A DNA stretch of 63,112 nucleotides, counting the filler, from Intoshia linei (lineage: Eukaryota; Animalia; Orthonectida), in the NCBI GenBank assembly GCA_001642005.1. It is 6 parts of 6 records of this genome, joined end to end, with 100 filler letters (N's around TTAATTAATTAA, not from the genome) between each part and the next. Parts side by side here need not be neighbours in the genome. Positions count along the whole stretch, not along the records: positions 47,884 to 61,695 come from LWCA01000993.1; 5 more parts are not named here. One strand, written 5' to 3'. The first letter of the stretch is position 1; each line of letters begins with the position of its first letter. Positions 48,550 to 62,532 of this stretch are shown here, piece by piece. A program made the position numbers and the translations under genes. The notes below the pieces were generated by a model. The model worked only from the letters and a program-made list of their open reading frames with translations, was not told where the DNA came from and ran no database searches.

Positions 48550-50964
48550 ATGTCGGGAAACCTTATCCGAAGATGCACTCATGCTGGCTCCTGGTACACA
48601 GATAATGGTATGTTATTATAAATATTACGCAATTGTACAGTGAACAATGATGCAAATGTACTATTATATAAAATTTTTAACGACATTATGCATATATTAT
48701 ATTAGGGGTTCTCAAACTTATTTGGTCTACCGCCCCTTTTTTAATAATATATTTTTTTAACGCCCTTTGAAAAAATTTTCGACTAGATTGTATAATATTT
48801 ATTTCAAAATTTTAAAATTTTAAAATTTGTTTTTAATTAAACTGATTATGAGATATTTCCGAAGTCGATTTTAATATTAAAAAAAAATTGATATATTTAT
48901 TAATGTTCACTGTTTATCTCAGTGAATCCCAAACTTGCGATAAAACTCTCCCTTTACAACCAAAAAATTCATCAACGCCCCATTCTATATTATATTATTA
49001 TATACTATCTACTAGTACTATATCTTATTTTTTAATATAATAACAAATATCTCGGGTCCCGACATTGAGATAATCTAAGAATATACATGTATACATTGTA
49101 AATCACAATTTGTCATCACAAAAAAACTGCACGAGACATAATGAATTTCATTGAGAAATTTTTTTTAAAGTTGACTAGTAATATAATTGTACTAACCTTT
49201 CCAAGATACAATGCGTAGGTTTTCCGCGGGTTAAAAAAGTCGAATAGCACGATTTGCAATAAATTACTTTGTAAATAAATTTTCCCAAGAATGTAGTCAA
49301 AATCTTCAGAAAATGTTAACAATTAACTTTTTTTTAATAATTTCTAATAAATAAATGCGTAAATAGTATATTATCTTATATTAATGATTTTATAAAGTAA
49401 AATAAGTTGCGTGATGAATTTTATATCTACAAATGATACAATGATCTTTTAAAATTTGGTGTAAGTGATGTAATAATTTTTGCATCATAAAAACATTATA
49501 AAAAATAAAAAAGCTAGGAAAGAGCAGTCAAAATAGTAAAAATCCATAATGTACCGTATAAAATTAAATGGTATTCACTATTCATGCATGCTACATGTAC
49601 TAAGAATGATACTTTAAAAGTGTAAATTAAAAAAAGTTTAAAATGGGATACTCCTGATAATACATGACGTGTAGCTGTAAATTTGGAACAAGAAGTTAAA
49701 GACTACATGTTAAAAGCAAAGAAAGATCCTGTATCAAATTTCGAAGGAAAAGAAAATGTTATGGCTTTCATTACTCCGTATTTTTTATTTAAATATCAAG
49801 TTTCAAATTATTTTGGTTTTTGGTTAAAGTGACATTATGCGTTGATTATAATCAATTATTTGAGACTCAAATTGAGTAAAAGTTTTTGATGCGAAAATGA
49901 ATAATATATTAACCGATATACAAATTATTTGAAATTGATGTGTATATTGTGCATGTCATGTATCGAATTGAATAAAATATTTTAGACATGCCGGTTTAAT
50001 GTACAGTGGACCTACTGCTGGTTACTCCTATAATTGTATTGATGTCTACAAAAAGTTTTACCTTGTAACTTTTATTTTTATTAAATTGCTTAGAAGAAAG
50101 ATTTTTATTTTGGGACCACTTCATGAGGGAGGATCTAAGGAATTGTACCTATCTAAAGCGACTCATTGGGAGACTCCTATCGGAAATTTAGCTGTTGACA
50201 TAAAAAGTACATGTAATATAAAATACTGTAATATTTTTTATTTTAAGTCTACGCTGAATTGGAATCAACAGGAAAATTTCATAGGCTAGGTCTGAAATCT
50301 GACGAAAACGAACATAGTTTAGAACTACAAACTCCATTTCTTGCTACACTTTTTAAAGAGTTTCCAAATTTTATAATAATGTTAAAATTTGTTTAGTCGT
50401 ATTGATGTCACAATAATTCCCATTATAATTTCTTGCATTTCTGCGTCAAACTTGGAAATTTTTGGTGAAATATTTAAAAAATATATGGCGGATGAATCGT
50501 GTATATTTGCTATTTCGTCCGACTTTTGTCATTGGGGTAATTAAGTTAATAATTTTCTGAATTATATTTATTATTAGGCGAACGATTTGGGTATCAGTTT
50601 TATGATAATTCTCAAGGACAAATATTTAAATCTATTGAGAATATGGATATGATGGTGATCAAGTTATATTTTCTAGTTAATTTCATAAATATAGGGAATG
50701 AATATTATTAAAACGTTGAACCCAGATGCGTTCATTAAATACTTGGAAGACTCAAAAAATACAATATGTGGTAGAGAAGCTATTACTCTCATGATGAAGG
50801 TTAGACAATTTCTTTTCTTTTAATTTTCTTAGATAATTAGTATTCTCAACATTGATAATTCTTGGAAAATTCATTTTCTAAAATATCAACAGTCGTCGCA
50901 AGTTACTAATTTTGATGATTCCTCCGTGAGCTATATTAGTGCAGTTGTAGTAAATGATGATTAA
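48550..50964 (+). CDS. MEMO1: Protein MEMO1
   Basis: RRCTHAGSWYT, ITP|HAGLMYSGPTAG, IFILGPLH, ETPIGNL, DENEHSLELQTPF, ISSDFCHWG|ERF, NTICGR, YQQSSQV..DSSVSY. Confidence 0.95.
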
Positions 50965-52621
50965 TTTTGTTATGAAATTAATAAACTATTCTAATGAATA
51001 TTTTATAAATTAGCTTGGTTCCAACACATGGAGTCACCACTGGTGTATGAAAAAAATTTGATTAAGCAGTTTGACAGGTCACATCTGTAAAAACTTATCT
51101 ACCATCCTCTTTATAAAAACTAATGCAATATCAACAAAAAGTACTATGCTTTTCAGAATTGTTATCTGATAGCAACGTTGTTAAGTACTTTTCGGCTCAA
51201 TTTACACCATTTTTATGTGATTGTTATTTATATCAATAATTACCATCTTATGACATTGACATCGATAAACTGGTTCCTTTCATGAAAATATTCTTTACGG
51301 AAAAGGTAATCAAATTTATACCATTAAAAGTACATCATGTATATGTTAATGTTTATTAATATAAGATTATTGATGTTGTTAGTATATAAATAAATTTTCT
51401 ATTGATTGGTTAACCAGTCCATGAATTTTTGCAAAACACCAATAATTAGTGGTAATGGTATTTCCTTCATATCTTTTGTTTCGATTCCTTTAAATTTCGA
51501 GCCTAAGCAATTAGAGTATTTGTCCAAATTAGATTCTGATAAATCTTAATAAAAATATTATTAGTATTATCAATACTGCAAAGTGTAAAATTTGTAAAAT
51601 TAGTGTGGGTCTAAATAACCTTGTACGGCGTACATTGTACAATGTGCATTGGGTGTCACACTTATCTGAGAAACAAGGGTGCTTATTACTCAATGTCTTC
51701 AGTTTTACGTTATAAATATAAATACACATGTGCTACAAAATAAAATTCCTTAAAATCTAATGTGGTCTATGGAGAAACCATTTTAATTGTATCATACCAG
51801 GTACCAGAATTTCAGCCAGCCCTGAAAATGTATGTCGCTCAATTTAATGTTCACCCTGATTATATTCTATTATGATTCTATGTGTATCTATGGTTTTTGC
51901 CTTTTTGATGATGATATCCATATTTAGTTAAATATATTAACTTTTTTAATTTTACCCTAACTCACTTTTGAGGTTTTGGCCAGTGTTCATTATGATGAGT
52001 AATATATTAAAGACAGCTTATATACAGGGTGTTCAACTACCCATAACAGCCAAAATAAAAAAGCGAGCATTTAATTGGAAAAAATAAACATACAGTGAAA
52101 CATGGTCCAGTGAAAAAGAGCCTTACATCTATAGAAACGGATTTTAAAAAATATTTCACAAATAAAGATAAATTTATAATTTTCTTTAATATTTTCGTAT
52201 CAAATAATTAAAATCTTTTCTTCATGATCAATATTTGAATTTGAGGGTTCTTATTTTGAGATGATAATTATATTACATATTTGAATATATTGAGTGATAA
52301 GTTCCAAAAAATTTGACACCCTAATGCACATTGTGCATGTTGACGTGCATACTCACGATATAGAGGAATTAATTAAGATTTATTTATATATTACTGTTAT
52401 GTTTACTTACATGTTAATATGATAATTTGTGGACCTGAATTTTCTTAATTATCTTTGCCCAGTGTGATTGAAGGTATGAAAATTTAAGGTTCGTTGATTA
52501 TCAAATTTATAAAATTAAAATCAATACATTTCAGAAAAATCAGATCACCATATTAAATGATGATGGGATGTAGAAGATGAATTGGGTGTTATTTACCGAG
52601 TAAATTTATCATTTAACATAC

Positions 52622-55600
52622 CTATATCTATATGGGCTTGCAAAGAAAATGTGTATTTAGTGACACCTTCAGGGTAGTACACTTTATTAATTTCCACATC
52701 TTCCATACTGACCATATCATTAACAACATTTTCATTTATCTGTTCTGCAATTGCCAAAGGATTGTCTTCTAAATAAATACCCAATCGATCTTCATATTCA
52801 ACAAATACGCATTCTTGGTTCAAATCAGATATAAGAAACTAAAAATTTTGGTTACATTAAAGTTATTAATTCTTAAGCTCTATTGCAGTGTTTCCGACCT
52901 TTTTTGAACAGTCATCTTCACTTTAACCCCATTCTGTAAAAATTGAGACAATCGCCTCATCAATTTTTTTTTATTTAGGTACATTGGATGAATAAGCGAA
53001 TTACACACAAAATTCAATATGACATGCCATAAAATTATAAATACCGTGTTAAGATAATTCGATAATACAATGTACATCAATATTTTTCAATCGATACACT
53101 CAAGTGGCAATCAACATCTACATAAGTCCAGCAGAAAAATTATGAAGTGGGGTATGGCGCAACCCGTGTGTTTGTTAGTACCATCATTTTGGAGGGTGAA
53201 TATTAATGATTTTAAAATGAAAGGCATTTACGTGCAAAATTGCTTTTTCTAATAAAAAAAGTGGTCACACTACCGTAGCATATATATTTTTTTCAAGTAT
53301 GTTTAAAAATATATGTCAAGTATACCTCATTAAAACCAACTGATGTAGGTTGTATATTCCATACATGTATCAATAAGTAGGATACTATAACGTGATTTAC
53401 AATACTTGGTCTCCATAGTAATAATTTGATTGGATTTGTATTAATCAAATACATGGAAAATGAAAAAAGAATTCCTGAAGAGTTGATACATTTTGAAAAC
53501 GCTACAGCACATTTTTCTCTAACAGCAATTTGGTTAGATTTTAAAAGATCAAATCCGTTTGTATAATATTTTGCTTATTATTATCAATTAATAATGAATA
53601 ATTAATTAAATTGTACCTGACTCAAATGCTTCATATAAGTTATCTATTGCAGGGCAATTGTACAAGCTGGTTTCAGTATCTTCTAAAAGTAAATTTTATT
53701 GTTTCCTCCAAAATTATTGTATATAATCAATTAATTACCTGTGCAAATATAACCTTGCACTGAAAAAACACAAGGATATCCCATACCATCAGACGTGTAT
53801 TCTTGACCGATAACAAGATCGGATTCGTACACATTTTGGATAATTACATTTTTAATGTTGTAATCATATTGATGTGTAACTGCTGGCGAGTCATCGTTAA
53901 TATATATACCTATACGGTCGTTCACTTTGCATTCTACACATTGTTGTTTTATATCTTCCAATCCAATCTATTTAAATTTAAAATCCATAAAATAAAATTT
54001 TAAATTTCAATTAAATTACATTCACTAGTCCGGTTTGTGGGGGGATTATATCCCAAATGTGAATGAGATTATATGTTTCAATTTGACCATTATAATATTT
54101 GGGTCGGAACAGTAAAACCTTCAATGGATCCGTATTTAAAAAGTAGAAGGTAAAGGCAAACAAACGACCTTTTCTCTGAATGTCTTGAGCAAATATGAAC
54201 GCGGAAATATTCCAGTTTACAGATTCATGTTTTGAAAGAGGTTTATATCCGACTTGTTCGAATCTACCAGCATTTTCTAAATAATTTTTTTTTAAAAATA
54301 TTTATATTTTATACTTACCACTTTTTTCCTTTTGTTTTGGTATAGTAATGTCAATGGGGCAATCTGATGTTTGGTCAATTTTTCCTTCTCGGATAACTAC
54401 AATTGAATTAAAATTTTAGATCATTTTATTATTTACAATTCCTTAACATTTCTAAATTTCTCATACACTGCTAGAAAAAAGTTTGGGATATTCATAAAAT
54501 ATTATATAAATAGTTGTTAAAATCATTTAAATATATTTATTTTTTTTATAAATGGTGTATAAAATAAAGTAATGTAAAATAAAAAAGTGTCCCAAAATTT
54601 TGATTAATTATAAATTAAAGCTTAATTAGACAGGTAATTATTTAATTTTTTTTATTTTTCTTTTATAGTGAATCATTTTTAACAGTATGTAGATGATAAT
54701 GAAAAACGAAAAATCACGCAATTAGTTTTGGCGAATCAAAACGTGTCTGAAATTGCTAGGATTATCAATAGAAGTAGGCATGCCATAAATAATTTCATAA
54801 GAGGTGTGGACACAACTGGTAAATGCAGAATTGGACGTCTAATGTGTTTAAATGAACGATAAATTAAGACAATACGACGTAAGGCTTCAAATTTCACCTT
54901 GTCTTCGGATGTCATACGTAGAGAACTGAACCTTTCCTGCTTACTTCGCACTATTCTAAACGTAATAAATAGTGCTTCAAACCTAACTCGACAAAAATTG
55001 AAATGTACCCCACATTTAACTGCAGGTCACAAAAACATGAGATTGCTTTTTGGTAAAAATAACATGGCCACAGATTGGAGCCGTATTTTTTATTCAGCTG
55101 AAAAAAGATTCAACTTGGATGGCCCAGATGGTTTAGCATATTATTGGCGAGACAAAAATTTACCTCCATTGTCGAGAATACGACGACAATGTAAAGGTGG
55201 CGGTGTAATGGTATGGGGCTGCATTTGGTAAAAATAGCAGATCAGAGATATGCTTCATAGAAGGGACAATGAATTGTGTAAAATACACAAAAGTGTTATA
55301 AGACTATTTATTAAATTGCAGGGATTATTTTGATGGGTTCCAACAAGACAATGCTTCAGTACACGTATCTAAATATACAAAAGAGTGGTTATCAAACAAA
55401 GGAATACATTTATTAAAATGGCCTGCTTGTAACCCTGACCTCAATCCAATCGAAAATTTATGGGGAATTTTTTCAAGAGATATATACTCACACAATAAAC
55501 AATATTCATCATTAAAAGATATCAAATTATCCATTATAGCAGCATGGGGTAATATTACACAAGATGTAATTAATAACCTCATTAATTCGATGCCAAATCG

Positions 55601-58600
55601 AATTTTTGAAGTTATTAAAAAAAACGGATGTTGTACCCATTATTAAAACATATAATCATTTCATTATCATTAATATTAAGCTATTTTAACTCAATTGTTC
55701 TCGACTTTTTTAGAATAGAATTGTTAAAGGAGATTTTCGTTAAATTTGATTAATTAAGCATAGGTTTTAATTAAAATTTTTTTTATGTTATTAAATTAAG
55801 CAATACATTAGTTGTGAATACAATATTATTTCGAAATGGCAAATTTCGATTATTTTAAGGTTTTAGAATACTTTCTGTAAATGTCCCAAACTTTTTTCTA
55901 GTAGTGTACCAGTTTCACAAATTAGACTATTAGAGCATCCAGAGCCGAATCTACCATCCTCGAGTCCCCAGTCACTTCTCCATGGTCATGCAGGGGTTTG
56001 GACTTAATTTAAATTTGACATATAATAGTTACGGCAATGCTTCTCATGGGGGTGACTGGTCACCCCAAGAGTTGAATATTTTCATGAGGGGGTGAATACT
56101 AAAATTTTAGATGATTGGGGTGAATGATAAATTTTTAAACTATTTTATTTAATTTAGTCAAATATGTGAAAAAACCCCTATATCAGATCCCAAAATAAAA
56201 AAACTCAATTTTACCAACCATTAAGAAAATAATCCCCTTTTACCAACATTTTTTTGAAAAATCCAATTTTAGCAAACTTTTAGATAAAAAAATCGTCTAT
56301 CTGATCTCAAAAGAAAAAACCTAATTTTACCAACCCTTAATGAAATAATTCCCTTTTACCAATATTTTTTTGAAAAATCCAATTTTATCAAAATTTTATA
56401 TCGAAAATCTCTTTATTTGATTCCAAAAGGATTTAGCCATGTCAATTATCTTTTGGACATCTTTTTAACATACAAAATGTCTCAATATTGAAAAACGTGG
56501 CGATTTGCGTTTAAAGCTTACCAACTTATCTATTAACTTCCACAAAATCACTGAATTAAACCAATGTCACCCTTCACATTAAATTTTTATATTTACATAA
56601 ATTTGTATTTGATTAAATTTCACATAGATTTTTGTTATGTATACTCAAATTCAGTACATTTTATAAGTACAAATTGTGTATTTCTACACAATTATGACAT
56701 GTTATAATAATTGTTTTATTGGGGGTGAATAGAACAAAAATATGTGTCACAGGGGGTGAATGTTCAAAAAAGTTTGAGAAGCACTGAGTTACGGTATTCA
56801 AAAATGTATTTTTTGAAATGCGAAATGGATAATAAAAAATGCCCCATGATACAAAATTCCATCCATCTCCCAAATATTGGATCAGGTACGATAGGTTGGC
56901 TCTGATAGCATATCACAATTTCATTTGGAATGCATTGTGTTTTTAATGCTGAAAATAACAATCTGACAAACATTTGCTAATTAATGAATTAAATTTTGAG
57001 ATGCTCTAATATTCTTTAATTTAATGAACTGCTGGTGAAATAATGTAATAGAAATAAATTTTGATGAATCAAAAAAAATTTTTAACAAATAAATATCGTT
57101 ATATATATAATTACGTTTATCAGAGTATGCTTTCATTGAAAATATACAAGGATATCCAACTCCATCTGTTGTATATTCATTTCCAACAATTAAATCGTTT
57201 TCATCGATATTTTGTATAATTGAATTTCCAACATTATAGTCATATTGGTGAGCAATAGATGGAGTATTATCGTCAATAAAAATGCCCAACCGGTCGTTTG
57301 GTTTTATTGAAATACATCGTGAATTTTCTTGTAAATGTATCTATATCATATTAAATGCATATGAATATTTTTAAATGCATACGTCAACTAATCCCAAATT
57401 TGGTGGTGTTATTGTCCAAATGTGAATCAATTTGTATGATAATATTTCAAAATTTTCATATGTTGGGCGCCACAAGAGTACTTTTACTGGGTCCATTTTA
57501 ATAAAGTAAAATGTAAACCCAAAGATTCTGCCGTAAGACATGAAACCATCTTCAAAAATAAATGAAGAAACATTCCACTTGACTGGCTCGTCGAATGATA
57601 TTAAATTGTATCCAACTTCTTCACCAGTATTTTCTTCTATATACATTATTAATATAATAAATTATGAATTGCGTGTTTACCTTTTTCAATCTCTTTTGGA
57701 TTTTTATTTTCATCAGAACAATTTGAATATTCATCCAAGTTTTCAAATTCTAAGTTTTATTGTAAATTGTAGTCATATCCATGAAACAAGTAAATTTATT
57801 ATTTAAAAAACCCCAATTTATTTTGACGTAAACCCAAGGATACATTATAAAAAGGTTTCACTTCTTTCTTATTATAAAAATAATAATGGAGATTTTCATT
57901 TATTCAAAAATGTTGATTCGCAACGGTTATAAAAAAATTTACCTTTGTTAATGTGTATTTTCAAAGAAAATATGCAATTATATTGTAAACCATCTGTATT
58001 ATAATCTCTATTAATTTCAAGTTCTTCACTATCTAATGGAATTATATTATTTCGAATGGCGTCATTATATTGATGTGCAATTGATGGAGAATCGTCGTCT
58101 ATCAGTATACCAATTTGGTCACCTTTTCTGACCATAAAACATTGTTGATTTATAGCAGATATCATAATCTAAATATTTAAATGTTAATAAAATAAATATA
58201 ATGTAGTTTCATTAATAATGTACTCTTCTATTTATAAAACTTATAACAAAAACGTCTCACCCCACACTAATCTTTTTCAAAATGATTTTCTGATTTCAGA
58301 ATTTTAAGGTGGCCCTTTATAGTATTAAACGGCAAAAACAAAAATAAATGATACAACTTTTAATAACTTTTTTATTTTGGGCTTTAGATTAGGAAGTTGT
58401 TGCTCCTAAGATTTAGTAAAATAGGATTCTTCAAAATAATGTTGGAAAAATAGGATATTTCCCTTAAGCGTTGGTAATATTGGAGTTTTATTTTAGGGTT
58501 GGAATAAGAGGTTTTTCTCATAGGATTTGGTAAAATCGTGTTTTAAAAAAAATATTGGAAAAAGCGTATTTTTTATTTATAGGTTGGTAAAATTGGATTT

Positions 58601-60190
58601 TTTATTTGGCGGTTTGATTAAGTGGATTTTTATCATAAGGTTTCGTAAAATCGGATTATTAAAAAAAATATCGCTAAAAGTCAATTTTTCCCTAGGACTT
58701 GAAATGGTATTTTTTATTAATGGTGGGATAAAAGTGGGATTTTTGAAATAATAATGTAGAGGTCGTCTAGATTTTATGATAATCAACATCTAGAAACTCT
58801 TTAATAATATTAAAAATCTTCTATAAAAACAAAAAAAAGTTGATTAGAATTTTTCTATATTTTATTTGAATCTCACTGACCCCAGGCATATAATTTTGGA
58901 CCCAATTGGGAATCACTGTTTTAATGTATACATTATTTATAAAAAATCCTAGTTAACGGAATGAGATTTTTTTCAGGACCAATTATTCCATTACGATGAA
59001 TTAGCCTGTATTACAATTTTTAATTAATCAAACGAAAAATTACATGTAGAGAATAACAAATTACACGAATTTGATAAATTTGTTATTATGATTAGTAAAA
59101 ATATTCTCTTACGTGTGATTTCCCCAAATTCTCTGGATTGATGGTCCACTTTTGAACTAATTTGTAAGAATAAATTGTACTGTACGCATAGTTTGGTCTC
59201 AAAAGGCATAAAGTAACGGGATCTTTACTAACAAAGTACATTGAAAATCCATACAAATAACCGAAGGATTCGATAGGATCGACAAATAGGAAAATGGACA
59301 ATTGCCAAGGAGAATATTCATCAATGGAAACTAAATCGTACCCGATAGTTTCGTATTTTTCTTCTAAAATAGGAACGTTTAATTAATTTATAAATTTGTA
59401 TTATTAAAAGTATTTAAATGTACCTGTTGAATAAAGGAGAGGTACACCACTATTTATTGGACACTTTGAATAATTATCAATTTTCGTATAACCAAAGTCT
59501 AACGAAATAAACGTAAATGTAATTAATTCAACTTGACATACCTTGATCCATGTAAAACCTAATAGAAAACACACAAGGGTATTTAATACCATCAGTAGAG
59601 TAGGCTTTATTTATAATTAAGTCATTTTGATAAACATTTTGAATAATTCTATTTTTAACTCTATAATCGTACTGATGCGCTACAGCTGGACTCTGATCTT
59701 TCAAATATAATCCGATTTTATCACCAGGTCTAGCAATTTCACAAATTTGACTAATATCTTGTACCATAACCTATATTGTAATAAATCAACATGTTTGTTT
59801 TTAATAATACATCTTCACGTCCTAAATTATTAGGATATATCAACCACGTGTATACAAGTGTAAATGTTTCCGGAATGTTCGAGGTGTAATCGGGTCTCAT
59901 TAAGATTAATTTAATTGGATTGAGGTTGATAAAGAAAAATGAGAAACCATAAATTCGCCCAAATGATTTAACATCATCAATCAAAAATATTGATGTGTTC
60001 CACTTGACAGGTTCATTTAATGCTATAGGATTGGATCCTAAAATGTCTCGTTTTTTGAAGGCTAAATTAAAAATTTTTAGTTAATAGTTATAAATCTGAT
60101 GAATTGTTCACAAATGAGGGCGAGACCTATTGGGTCAATGATAATTTTTCGAAAAAAGTTCATAATAAGAAAGAAAAATTTTGTAATCAT
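52622..60190 (-). CDS. Large, probably extracellular protein with five tandem ~155-aa repeats of an unassigned domain; both ends uncertain
   Basis: Five units, each an exon A (G(Y/F)..W..S.F..GRI(Y/F)GF.FYF...P.K.LLWRP..Y.LIH.W.I.P..G) and an exon B (C....D(R/K/Q)IGI......P.(I/V)AHQY..Y.TDG..YPC.FS). Units 1-4 are each followed by a short Cys-containing linker exon. Splice phases are identical between units. Confidence 0.85.
54466..55906 (+). mobile_element. Full-length but inactivated Tc1/Tc3-type transposon (1441 bp) in an intron
   Basis: TIRs CACTGCTAGAAAAAAGTTTGGGATAT / ATGTCCCAAACTTTTTTCTAGTAGTG with TA TSD. Transposase has YSAEKRFNLDGPDG, GGGVMVWGC, QQDNASVH..PDLNPIENLW (34 residues between D and E). 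It contains stops and frameshifts, and the first catalytic D is replaced by A. Confidence 0.95.
56035..56786. mobile_element. hAT-type MITE
   Basis: TIRs CAATGCTTCTCA / TGAGAAGCACTG; perfect 8-bp TSD AGTTACGG; internal GGGGTGA repeats; 5' end shared with ~38200. Confidence 0.88.
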
Positions 60191-61479
60191 CAAAAGTGTA
60201 AATTGAATTACACATTATTTAAGATTATCCAATTTTATTAATACAATGTACTTGCTACAAAAATTAATTTTCTTCAACGCTTTGGAAATATCCATTTTAT
60301 CTTGGTCTCATTTAAGTTTTGGGATATTTGTTTGATTACACTATAATACTATACTATCTGTATAGTTTGTTTTAGAAAAATTGCAAATTTAGTAAATTTT
60401 GACGAGATAATGCATTCTTATCTACTTTCGACGAATAAAATTCTATTTACCACCAATTAAATGTAAAATTAAATTTTATTAAACAATAGTGGAAACCTAA
60501 TTATAATAAATTTTGAAAAAAAACCCCTATATGAAATTTCAAGTTCAATACTACTAAAATGGTATGAAAATGGCAATCAATTCATTCAAAATAATTCATT
60601 TTATGAGCCTAGACTCTATAACATATAGATCACAAACCCACTCAATGAATCTTGAAAATCACTCAATTATAATTACATAAATGTATATTGGATTATAGAC
60701 CTACATGATACGTCATTCTCCACCTCTTACACGGCAAAATTTTTTTTATAATGATCAGTATCTTCTTACATTTTCAATATACAATGTATAAGCTAACCAC
60801 TGAACATTACACATTGACAGCAAAGATGAACGGAATTAGTATAAATATAAAAAATCCCCTATAGACAGCAAATTATTTATAATTTTTCAATTTTTAACTC
60901 GGGTCCATGCCCGTCCGTCAGTATTTAAAAAAAGTTTGCATACCTGTACGCGTTACAGAGCTCTATATCCTTACTTATATGAAAAGCTTTGTCTCTATGT
61001 GTTATCGTTTATTTCAATAACTACCAATTTTAGAATTTTATAAAGTCCACTTTTTACACCTTACCTGTCAAAAACCCCATTTTTTTTTTTTTTTTTTNNN
61101 NNNNNNNNNNNNNNNNNNNNNNNACCCCTTACCTGTCAAAAACCCCATTTTTTTTTTTTTTTTTTGAAAATCAAACCAGTTCGAAAATTTCAATTAATAT
61201 ATCCTCTGAAACATATTTTAAAATAATATATTATCATTATATTATCACATATATTATTAATATAATTATCATAAATTGAAATTTAAAAAAAAATATCTTC
61301 AGTGCCAAAACCCCAAGTTACCTTTTTTTTTGATGAAAATAGCCATAGAATTTAAAAAAATTTACATGTGGTACAGTTGTATCCTGTTAACACAAAAAAT
61401 TTCAATATGAATCAGTGACGCCTTCATTGTCCAAAAAGCATTTATTTATTCATATATTTTTTTCGAAATATTTTATTAA

Positions 61480-61590
61480 AACAATGTGAAATAATTAAAG
61501 GTCCGAAAATTAAAAAAAAAAATTATTCTGATAGAGCTTATTCCAGTTGATATAAATACAAAATTTCAACCCAGAAATCTACGCATTCAT
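61480..61590. repeat. Dispersed repeat, inverted copy of ~5635-5750
   Basis: GGTCCGAAAATTAAAA..TCTGATAGAGCTTATTCCAGTT..AATCTACGCATTC is the reverse complement of 5640-5730. Confidence 0.75.
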
Positions 61591-62532
61591 TAAAAGCGTT
61601 TCTGTGTAAATTAGCAAACTGGAAAAGGCGTATAAATTTATATAATTATGCAATGTTTCATAAATTATCAACTGTGTTAGATACTAGAAACGAAANNNNN
61701 NNNNNNNNNNNNNNNNNNNNNNNNNNNNNNNNNNNNNNNTTAATTAATTAANNNNNNNNNNNNNNNNNNNNNNNNNNNNNNNNNNNNNNNNNNNNCAATA
61801 ATGTATAATAGTTTTTCAATTAGTAAATAAAACAATAATAATTATATACATTCTTCTATAATTTTTTTTTTCTTTTTCTATCATTTTTCTTGACTTCATC
61901 GTTATTCTTTGTCTTTTTAGCACAATTGGAACAATGTTCAGTTGTATTGGTCATATTTATATCAATTGATTGATTCATTTAATTAATTTCAATTTAAACT
62001 TATTGGCGTTACAGAATTTTTTTGATTTTATCAATTATCTCAGCTTATTTTTTAATTAAAATTAATTTTTTATATGTATATGATAAGAAATTATTTTATT
62101 AACGTAACAAATCGAAATTGGTCTATTTTTATTTTATACAAAACTAGATATGTCGATTTATATTTATATTTAATATTCTGTAAAAATAAATTTTTATCTA
62201 ACATACATCAAAGCGTTTATATATAGTGTTTAAATATAATTTTTTTGGCAGGTATTTTATACCTATTGTACAATATAGGATTTATGATCAACATTAAACC
62301 AAAAAAATAAATCTAATTTATCATTTTAATTTTTGATATTTAGTGTAGAGAATGGGTTAATTATGTAATTTCACTCATTTAGAAAATTAATTAATTATTT
62401 TATTAGTGTAATCTAAAAAAATTAAAAATAGCTCTGTGCACCCCAAAAATATATTATGCACCCCCTTTTAAGAACCACTGCTCTACCGGCTCTAGTTCAT
62501 TACAGTTTTAATTATTTATAGTTCTTTTAGAA

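What the first reader, a model, noticed from the sequence alone, without database searches (positions are those of the whole stretch)
52622..60190. Exon-shuffled protein of five tandem copies of an unassigned ~155-aa domain
Seen: the scattered ORFs at 52.6-60 kb splice into one gene with five units (about 60061-59542, 59364-57943, 57636-57115, 54276-53739, 53573-52622). Each unit is exon A + phase-0 intron + exon B + phase-1 intron. Units 1-4 are followed by a ~25-aa linker exon with one Cys (YSKCP, YSNCS, TSDCP, LYNCP). Conserved motifs are W..S.F, GR(I/L)(Y/F)GF.FYF, LLWRP, L(I/V)H.W.I.P, C....DRIGI, P.(V/I)AHQY and Y.(T/S)DG..YPC.FS; unit 5 is the most degenerate and lacks the His and the second Cys. 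Established: symmetric phase-1 modules are the hallmark of shuffled extracellular domains in animals. Inference: a beta-rich secreted or surface module, possibly a multivalent binder (lectin, adhesion or cuticle role), held by linker disulfides. I cannot match it to a named family. This is the best candidate for an undescribed system here.
Basis: partly seen in the sequence, partly recalled or inferred. Interest (0 to 1): 0.8.

Follow-up and report, generated by a model that had tools for sequence, protein, structure and literature searches.

The report
Nine-headed secreted protein of orthonectid parasite
This spliced gene of the tiny parasitic worm Intoshia linei carries five copies of an unnamed protein module in the window and very likely four more upstream; relatives carry the same module as the single head of small membrane collagens, so the parasite likely turned that head into a secreted, many-handed binding protein whose target (probably sugars) is untested.

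Summary
All 13 predicted introns are spliced in one contig in each of three runs. That contig continues about 2.3 kb upstream into sequence matching a second Intoshia linei gene model with a signal peptide and four more units. The product is very likely one secreted protein of about 1,700 aa with nine units, split by the assembly. The unit matches no Pfam family or solved structure by sequence, but it is not an orphan. It is the N-terminal head of unnamed type I membrane short collagens of annelids and of Intoshia itself, with the same intron positions. The 'linker' exon is part of the domain: its Cys is co-conserved with a core Cys. The predicted fold is a galactose-binding-like jelly roll (best Z 9.7, 9.6, 8.4: phage cement, phage tail tip, Cwp84 lectin-like domain). 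Best reading: an extracellular multivalent binder in which tandem repeats replace collagen trimerisation; the ligand is untested. The scan had not noted this elsewhere.

The parts
59811..60061 (-). Exon A of window unit 1 (unit 5 of 9); its acceptor receives the upstream four-unit half, which lies outside the window
59542..59770 (-). Exon B, window unit 1
59424..59498 (-). Exon C (Cys-bearing 'linker'), window unit 1
59113..59363 (-). Exon A, window unit 2
57943..58168 (-). Exon B, window unit 2
57681..57749 (-). Exon C, window unit 2
57383..57636 (-). Exon A, window unit 3
57115..57340 (-). Exon B, window unit 3
54319..54396 (-). Exon C, window unit 3, reached across a 2,718-nt intron that is spliced in all three runs
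54020..54276 (-). Exon A, window unit 4
53739..53967 (-). Exon B, window unit 4
53617..53682 (-). Exon C, window unit 4
53326..53573 (-). Exon A, window unit 5 (unit 9 of 9, most diverged); donor at 53326 seen spliced, whereas the public model ends this exon early
52622..52838 (-). Exon B, window unit 5
51399..51544 (-). The junction itself is not among the listed joints
   Evidence: public model; contig ends at 52622 and 51517-51522 fit this donor and acceptor, and the bin has high depth in two runs; translation; hydrophobic moment

Best explanation
The window holds the spliced 3' part of an Intoshia linei gene that very likely encodes one secreted protein of about 1,700 aa with nine tandem copies of a predicted jelly-roll domain, and this protein likely works as a multivalent binder of extracellular ligands, most probably glycans. 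SHOWN: five units spliced into one transcript contig; homology of the unit to the head of type I membrane short collagens; shared intron positions; the nine units form one clade. STRONGLY INFERRED: the upstream half is gene model A3Q56_07254 (signal peptide plus four units), so the public models 07254 and 06038 are one gene. INFERRED: each unit (exons A+B+C, about 178 aa) folds on its own and is closed by one disulfide from the core Cys to the exon-C Cys; units hang on flexible tethers; there is no collagen and no membrane anchor, so the protein is released into the extracellular space. In the collagen relatives three heads would be held together at the cell surface by the triple helix. Here the three-exon phase-1 module was duplicated in tandem, so avidity would come from nine heads on one chain. 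The residues fixed only in the nine units (HQY, Trp71, Glu14, Tyr138) would form the retained binding surface. The likely site of action is the animal's surface coat (cuticle or the plasmodium-host interface).
For: Splicing: one contig per run (records 11, 13, 16) joins all 13 introns in X2, X3, X4; the DNA run X1 shows none. 5' half: the same contigs run 2,216, 2,301 and 2,274 nt beyond 60063. A loose end translates to residues 481-490 of P0004 and to no other of the 37 stored proteins. Contig lengths to 52622 (4,894, 4,979, 4,952) bracket the 4,957 nt expected for P0004 plus the window exons, and bin depth leaves no room for a second contig. P0004 starts with a hydrophobic N-terminal segment (helix 2-17). 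Homology: a profile of only the five window A exons finds 28 proteins at E<=1e-3 among 1.84 billion, 26 of them outside the two tandem models; 7 of those 26 carry Pfam Collagen. A profile of 19 non-Intoshia heads scores all nine units at E<=2e-12. 19 of 20 full-length single-head relatives have 6 or more Gly-X-Y triplets and 19 of 20 a transmembrane-like segment; P0003 and P0004 have neither. Two Cys columns are present in 9 of 9 units and 20 of 25 other domains, and the same five domains lack both. Fold: pLDDT 84, all beta; Z 8.4-9.7 to jelly rolls, with many CBM, F-lectin and discoidin domains at Z about 5. The four-unit model has four folded domains and low-confidence joints, pTM 0.49.
Against: No ligand evidence. 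The two best structural matches are phage structural proteins (capsid cement, tail tip), and the third, the Cwp84 'lectin-like' domain, is only a putative sugar binder according to its authors (PMC4089489, passages). Foldseek found no PDB match at E<=1e-3, and Z 8-10 is only a little above the usual background of 7-8. The F-type and C-type lectin motifs are absent from all 34 domains. The letters right at the P0004-window junction were not displayed, so the join rests on lengths, depths and one 10-residue match. The three spliced runs are one study, are not on record as RNA, and give no stage or tissue. The sample of collagen-linked relatives is biased: one search was seeded with a collagen-bearing protein and limited to 283-902 aa, and the Atlas shows 28 unnamed clusters whose three listed representatives are only 173-206 aa.
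Confidence: 0.5

Rival explanations
1. A structural building block of the cuticle or extracellular coat: the units pack with each other into a lattice or fibre, cross-linked through the extra, Intoshia-only Cys (YPC, units 1-8), with no specific ligand.
For: The top two structural matches are self-assembling phage structural proteins (Z 9.7, 9.6), and BFVD hits are tail, neck and collagen-fibre proteins. A third Cys replaces Tyr in 8 of 9 units and in 0 of 25 other domains. Orthonectids have an annelid-type microvillar cuticle (PMC12249979, passages).
Against: The extra Cys lies in a strand in register with an invariant Phe, so it may be buried (inference). Units are only 25-49% identical, low for a uniform lattice subunit.
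Confidence: 0.25
2. A multivalent protein-binding decoy or adhesion bridge: the heads bind the protein partner of the ancestral membrane collagen, in the worm itself or in the host.
For: Same head as a cell-surface receptor-like collagen with a conserved cytoplasmic motif. Many jelly rolls in the match list bind proteins (PHR, SUN, neuropilin, IFT25). A related head occurs seven times in a nemertean membrane collagen (P0005).
Against: The units have replaced many residues fixed in the collagen heads, so the ancestral surface may not be kept. No partner is known.
Confidence: 0.15
3. Three single-chain pseudo-trimers: nine units fold as three C1q-like compact heads that copy the trimer made by the collagen relatives.
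For: Nine is three times three, and the ancestral head sits on a trimer-forming collagen.
Against: No period of three in identities or in the tree. The four-unit model shows low-confidence joints and pTM 0.49. C1q and TNF heads match poorly (Foldseek TMq 0.21-0.25).
Confidence: 0.07
4. Two separate paralogous genes (five units without a signal peptide, and four units), joined only by chimeric contig assembly.
For: Two public models on two contigs; the junction letters were not shown.
Against: The join falls exactly at a canonical phase-1 acceptor in all three runs, the units share too little DNA identity for a 31-mer chimera (60-72% in the best repeat family), the lengths fit, and P0004 is flagged partial and ends in a Cys segment.
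Confidence: 0.03

Closest known systems
Unnamed type I membrane short collagens (Intoshia A3Q56_04626 = P0012; Paralvinella LSH36_687g01025 = P0018; Tubulanus LOC141906210 = P0005)
   Same: Same head domain (E<=2e-12 from a profile without Intoshia rows), same two Cys in the single-head forms, same intron positions in several loci. P0005 also has tandem heads (seven).
   Different: They carry collagen, a membrane helix and a cytoplasmic tail; this protein has nine heads, no collagen, no membrane helix, and an extra Cys. They are database entries with no described function.
Cwp84 lectin-like domain (Pfam PF18560; PDB 4ci7)
   Same: Jelly-roll sandwich of similar size: Z 8.4, rmsd 3.4 A over 136 residues; best Foldseek row, E 1.3e-3; best named Atlas cluster, 0.87.
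   Different: 12-16% identity, no Pfam hit, bacterial, attached to a protease; sugar binding only putative.
Tandem F-type lectins and discoidin/CBM32 arrays
   Same: Secreted tandem jelly-roll domains that gain avidity by repetition (PMC5712786, passages); Z 5.1-5.7.
   Different: The fucose-binding motif is absent, there is no Pfam hit, and the structural match is at background level.
Phage jelly-roll structural domains (cyanophage A4 capsid chain 9jwb_Z; Bxb1 tail tip 9d93_Pa)
   Same: Best fold matches: Z 9.7 (rmsd 3.5, 144 aligned) and 9.6 (rmsd 3.7, 153 aligned).
   Different: 8-10% identity; viral structural context; a shared fold shows no function.

Membership tests
Unnamed spiralian collagen-head domain family | Significant full-length profile similarity | tested here: met
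   A profile of 19 non-Intoshia heads scores units 1-9 at E 3e-19 to 2e-12 for 1.8e9 sequences
Unnamed spiralian collagen-head domain family | Core Cys plus C-terminal CP Cys, G..RP and D.LG motifs | tested here: met
   9 of 9 units and 20 of 20 single collagen-type heads
Unnamed spiralian collagen-head domain family | Phase-0 internal intron and phase-1 intron after the last strand | tested here: met
   Phase-1 donor at the identical offset in 4 of 16 loci, shifted by 9 nt in 2, absent in 10; phase-0 acceptor before exon B in 9 of 16 plus L016
Membrane short collagens (the parent proteins) | Gly-X-Y triple-helix segment | tested here: not met
   Longest run 0 in P0003 and 2 in P0004
Membrane short collagens (the parent proteins) | Transmembrane helix | tested here: not met
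   Best 19-residue hydropathy 1.45 and 1.66 against 2.5-3.6 in 19 of 20 relatives
F-type lectins | Fucose motif H-x24-R-x-D-x4-R/K (PMC5712786) | tested here: not met
   0 of 34 domains with spacing 24-28
F-type lectins / discoidin / CBM32 | Galactose-binding-like jelly-roll fold | tested here: inconclusive
   Z 5.1-5.7, below the usual best-hit background of 7-8
Lectin_like PF18560 (Cwp84) | Pfam profile match | tested here: not met
   No hit for P0003, P0004 or 11 domain rows
Lectin_like PF18560 (Cwp84) | Same fold | tested here: met
   Z 8.4, rmsd 3.4, 136 aligned, on a predicted model
C1q/TNF heads | Trimer-forming head C-terminal to collagen | tested here: inconclusive
   Head is N-terminal to the collagen in relatives; weak Foldseek rows only; trimer prediction could not be run
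Any lectin | Demonstrated sugar binding | not testable with these tools
   Needs a glycan array

The most novel reading that the evidence does not exclude
The unit is the first-described member of an unrecognised animal lectin-like domain family reaching from sponges to annelids, and the orthonectid has rebuilt a membrane collagen's trimeric head into a secreted nine-valent single-chain binder that coats its parasitic plasmodium and grips or masks host glycans.
Probability: 0.2. Interest if true: 0.75.

Novelty: new variant of a known kind. Interest (0 to 1): 0.5.

Why it matters
Orthonectids are extremely simplified parasitic relatives of annelids, so a gene that gained nine diverged domains is a good candidate for something the lineage needs at its surface. 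The work also exposes an animal extracellular domain, and a family of membrane short collagens, with no Pfam entry, and gives a compact 178-aa unit that can be expressed and assayed. It corrects the annotation: two 'hypothetical' models are very likely one secreted protein. Interest is moderate because tandem jelly-roll arrays are a familiar design and no ligand or life stage is known.

Tried and rejected
Pfam scans of P0003, P0004, single exons and 11 domain rows: nothing near a cut-off. PDB sequence searches with three profiles: best E 0.21, 0.23 and 1.3. Foldseek on PDB: none at E<=1e-3. C1q, TNF and collagen NC domains are not among the 50 listed VIA rows; this does not exclude them. A hydrophobic-ended frame at 51532-51729 (minus) looked like a membrane or GPI end, but it lies in the last intron with low depth in X2 and X4 and has no Pfam hit; rejected as the main end, not excluded as a minor form. 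A 3x3 or 4+4+1 duplication pattern is not resolved by identities or trees. No run was listed as an RNA holder; the spliced joints, not the record, mark X2-X4 as transcript-derived. The head-trimer prediction was not run because the queue was full, so trimer formation is open. No whole genome is held, so the DNA of the upstream half was not seen. Literature searches (open-licence PMC and bioRxiv only) found no description of this gene or domain, and the locus-tag prefix occurs in no main text; subscription papers and supplements were not searched. Earlier scan findings: none on this sequence or genome; the word search returned bacterial collagen-like proteins only.
Full report
Observation. The region is AT-rich eukaryotic DNA (22-31% GC) among housekeeping genes. 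Joining 14 minus-strand exons at GT-AG sites gives 892 codons without a stop; A|B introns are phase 0 and all others phase 1; 10 of the 13 introns are 40-60 nt or 193 nt, and three are 487, 944 and 2,718 nt. The five units are 29-52% identical, and no further unit lies in the window. The window's translation is identical to the public model A3Q56_06038 of Intoshia linei, an orthonectid (P0003).

Transcript evidence. Seven runs hold the stretch; none is on record as RNA. Four were laid on 51300-60500. In X2, X3 and X4 (one study) a single contig joins all 13 introns at the predicted sites, including the 2,718-nt one; the DNA run X1 shows none of these joints. The donor at 53326 is used, so the public model loses about 20 residues of unit 5. 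At the 3' end the main contigs of X2 and X4 stop at 52622, and unspliced contigs (low depth in X2 and X4) stop at 51517-51522, as expected if a spliced path enters at 51544. The last bin has high depth in X2 and X4. This supports the last exon 51544-51399 of the public model, which adds a fifth Cys segment and a tail with an amphipathic, not transmembrane, end; the joint itself is not among the listed rows.

The gene is larger. The same contigs continue 2,216, 2,301 and 2,274 nt beyond 60063 with sequence that is not in the laid stretch but has short pieces resembling units 3 and 4. The homology search had returned a second model, A3Q56_07254 (P0004, 761 aa, 'partial', on another contig) with a hydrophobic N-terminal segment and four units, ending in a Cys segment. 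A loose end seen in all three runs translates to P0004 residues 481-490 and to none of the other stored proteins. P0004 plus the window exons predict 4,957 nt up to 52622; the contigs give 4,894, 4,952 and 4,979, and the depth of the bin that holds the loose end is fully explained by the main contig. I conclude that the two models are very likely one gene of about 1,700 codons with a signal peptide and nine units.

What the unit is. No Pfam or PDB sequence match was found. A profile of the five A exons alone, run over 1.84 billion cluster representatives, gave 28 hits at E<=1e-3: the two Intoshia models and 26 others. Many of the 26 are short single-exon fragments; seven carry Pfam Collagen, among them proteins named from Paralvinella (annelid), Tubulanus (nemertean) and Intoshia itself (A3Q56_04626). 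A search seeded with one of these heads gave 17 hits, 15 with Collagen. Their plan is signal peptide, head, Gly-X-Y stalk, membrane helix, cytoplasmic tail with a shared motif. Of 20 full-length single-head relatives (fragments, P0005, P0009, P0024 and P0052 left out), 19 have six or more triplets and 19 a membrane-like segment; the Intoshia tandem halves have neither. A profile of 19 non-Intoshia heads scores all nine units at E<=2e-12. This sample leans towards collagen-linked forms. The ESM Atlas lists 28 unnamed clusters near the unit; the best three score 0.93-0.94, are 173-206 aa and are eukaryotic, with sponges or annelids commonest among the few members with a record. P0024 has two heads and no collagen. 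So the domain is a wider animal module.

Module borders and cysteines. This points to one intradomain disulfide and makes the linker exon the third exon of the module. The YPC Cys is in units 1-8 and in none of the 25 others, where Tyr is usual. In 16 loci from metagenome contigs the phase-1 donor after the last strand lies at the identical offset in 4, is shifted by three codons in 2 and is absent in 10; a phase-0 acceptor precedes exon B in 9 and in L016. The internal introns are therefore old. The nine units form one clade (100/99; 34 rows). With the five P0005 and P0024 rows removed, they lie on one side with the Intoshia collagen head (97/90), although long branches may cause that. Identities of 25-49% and no periodicity indicate an old stepwise expansion.

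Fold. The AlphaFold model of one unit has pLDDT 84, pTM 0.84 and is all beta. The best matches among 48,161 chains are a cyanophage A4 capsid chain (Z 9.7, rmsd 3.5, 144 aligned), a Bxb1 tail-tip domain (9.6, 3.7, 153) and the Cwp84 lectin-like domain (8.4, 3.4, 136), followed by esterase-associated domains (about 7.5) and CBM, F-lectin, PHR, SUN and discoidin domains near 5. Foldseek ranks Cwp84 first at E 1.3e-3; viral-library hits at E<=1e-3 number seven and include tail, neck and collagen-fibre proteins. The Cwp84 paper calls its domain only putatively carbohydrate-binding (PMC4089489, passages). The F-type motif (PMC5712786, passages) is absent from all 34 domains. A model of the four upstream units shows four folded domains with low-confidence joints and pTM 0.49; the alignment was shallow (16 rows, mostly on one unit), so fixed packing is neither shown nor excluded.

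How it most likely works. The protein would be secreted, each unit closed by a disulfide, and the units strung on short flexible tethers. The ancestral protein would show three heads on a membrane-anchored triple helix (established behaviour of Gly-X-Y chains; not tested here). Duplication of the symmetric three-exon module and loss of stalk and anchor would give nine heads on a soluble chain, which suits avid binding to a repetitive surface. Residues fixed only in the nine units (Glu14, Trp71, His113-Gln114-Tyr115, Asn121, Tyr138) suggest a retained, lineage-specific site; His, Gln, Trp and Tyr are typical of sugar sites, but that is recalled knowledge and their positions on the model were not examined. 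Orthonectids have a plasmodium inside host tissue and short-lived adults with an annelid-type microvillar cuticle (PMC12249979, passages; PMC6543705, passages); either surface could be the site. I put about 0.9 on the anatomy and 0.5 on the whole reading, against a structural lattice (0.25), a protein-binding decoy (0.15), pseudo-trimers (0.07) and two genes (0.03).

Novelty. Searches of the held library (listings and abstract starts only, except for the passages cited) found no description of the gene, the domain or the membrane collagens. I recall, without a call, a subscription-journal RNA-seq study of Intoshia stage-specific secreted proteins whose tables might list these models; it could not be checked. 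The design, a tandem jelly-roll array, is familiar; the domain family, its collagen parents and this nine-unit derivative appear undescribed. Verdict: new variant of a known kind, interest 0.5.

Noticed in passing
window 54464-55908: Broken Tc1/Tc3-type transposon in the 2,718-nt intron, opposite strand: 47-nt inverted ends (79% complementary), Tc3 HTH and DDE_3 remnants in different frames; many diverged copies in the runs.
   Followed up: partly
window 56155-56430 and 58440-58780: Two intronic arrays with a 29-nt (116-nt) period, inverted relative to each other and multi-copy in the runs; probably a dispersed repeat family.
   Followed up: no
P0012 (A3Q56_04626) and P0014, P0018, P0027, P0029, P0038-P0051: An apparently unnamed family of type I membrane short collagens with this head and a conserved cytoplasmic motif (W/D-x-x-x-[LM]-[KR] followed by E..YS..T); some genomes seem to hold several paralogues on one contig (same longest-contig lengths).
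   Followed up: partly
P0005 (Tubulanus LOC141906210): Independent tandem expansion: seven heads, the four best-scoring without Cys, then collagen, EGF repeats and a membrane helix.
   Followed up: partly
window 51545-52621: The last intron is retained in contigs of all three spliced runs and holds a minus-strand frame (51532-51729) with a hydrophobic end; a minor membrane-anchored isoform is not excluded.
   Followed up: partly
window 49972-50964 (+): MEMO1-like gene (Pfam Memo) converging on the 3' end of this gene.
   Followed up: no
window 61098-61797: Assembly gaps (N runs) and a duplicated 42-nt end just upstream of the gene; the missing 5' half may belong in or beyond them.
   Followed up: no
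P0004 unit 1 and window unit 5: Only the first and last of the nine units share an extra Cys in the same column of exon A; unexplained.
   Followed up: no
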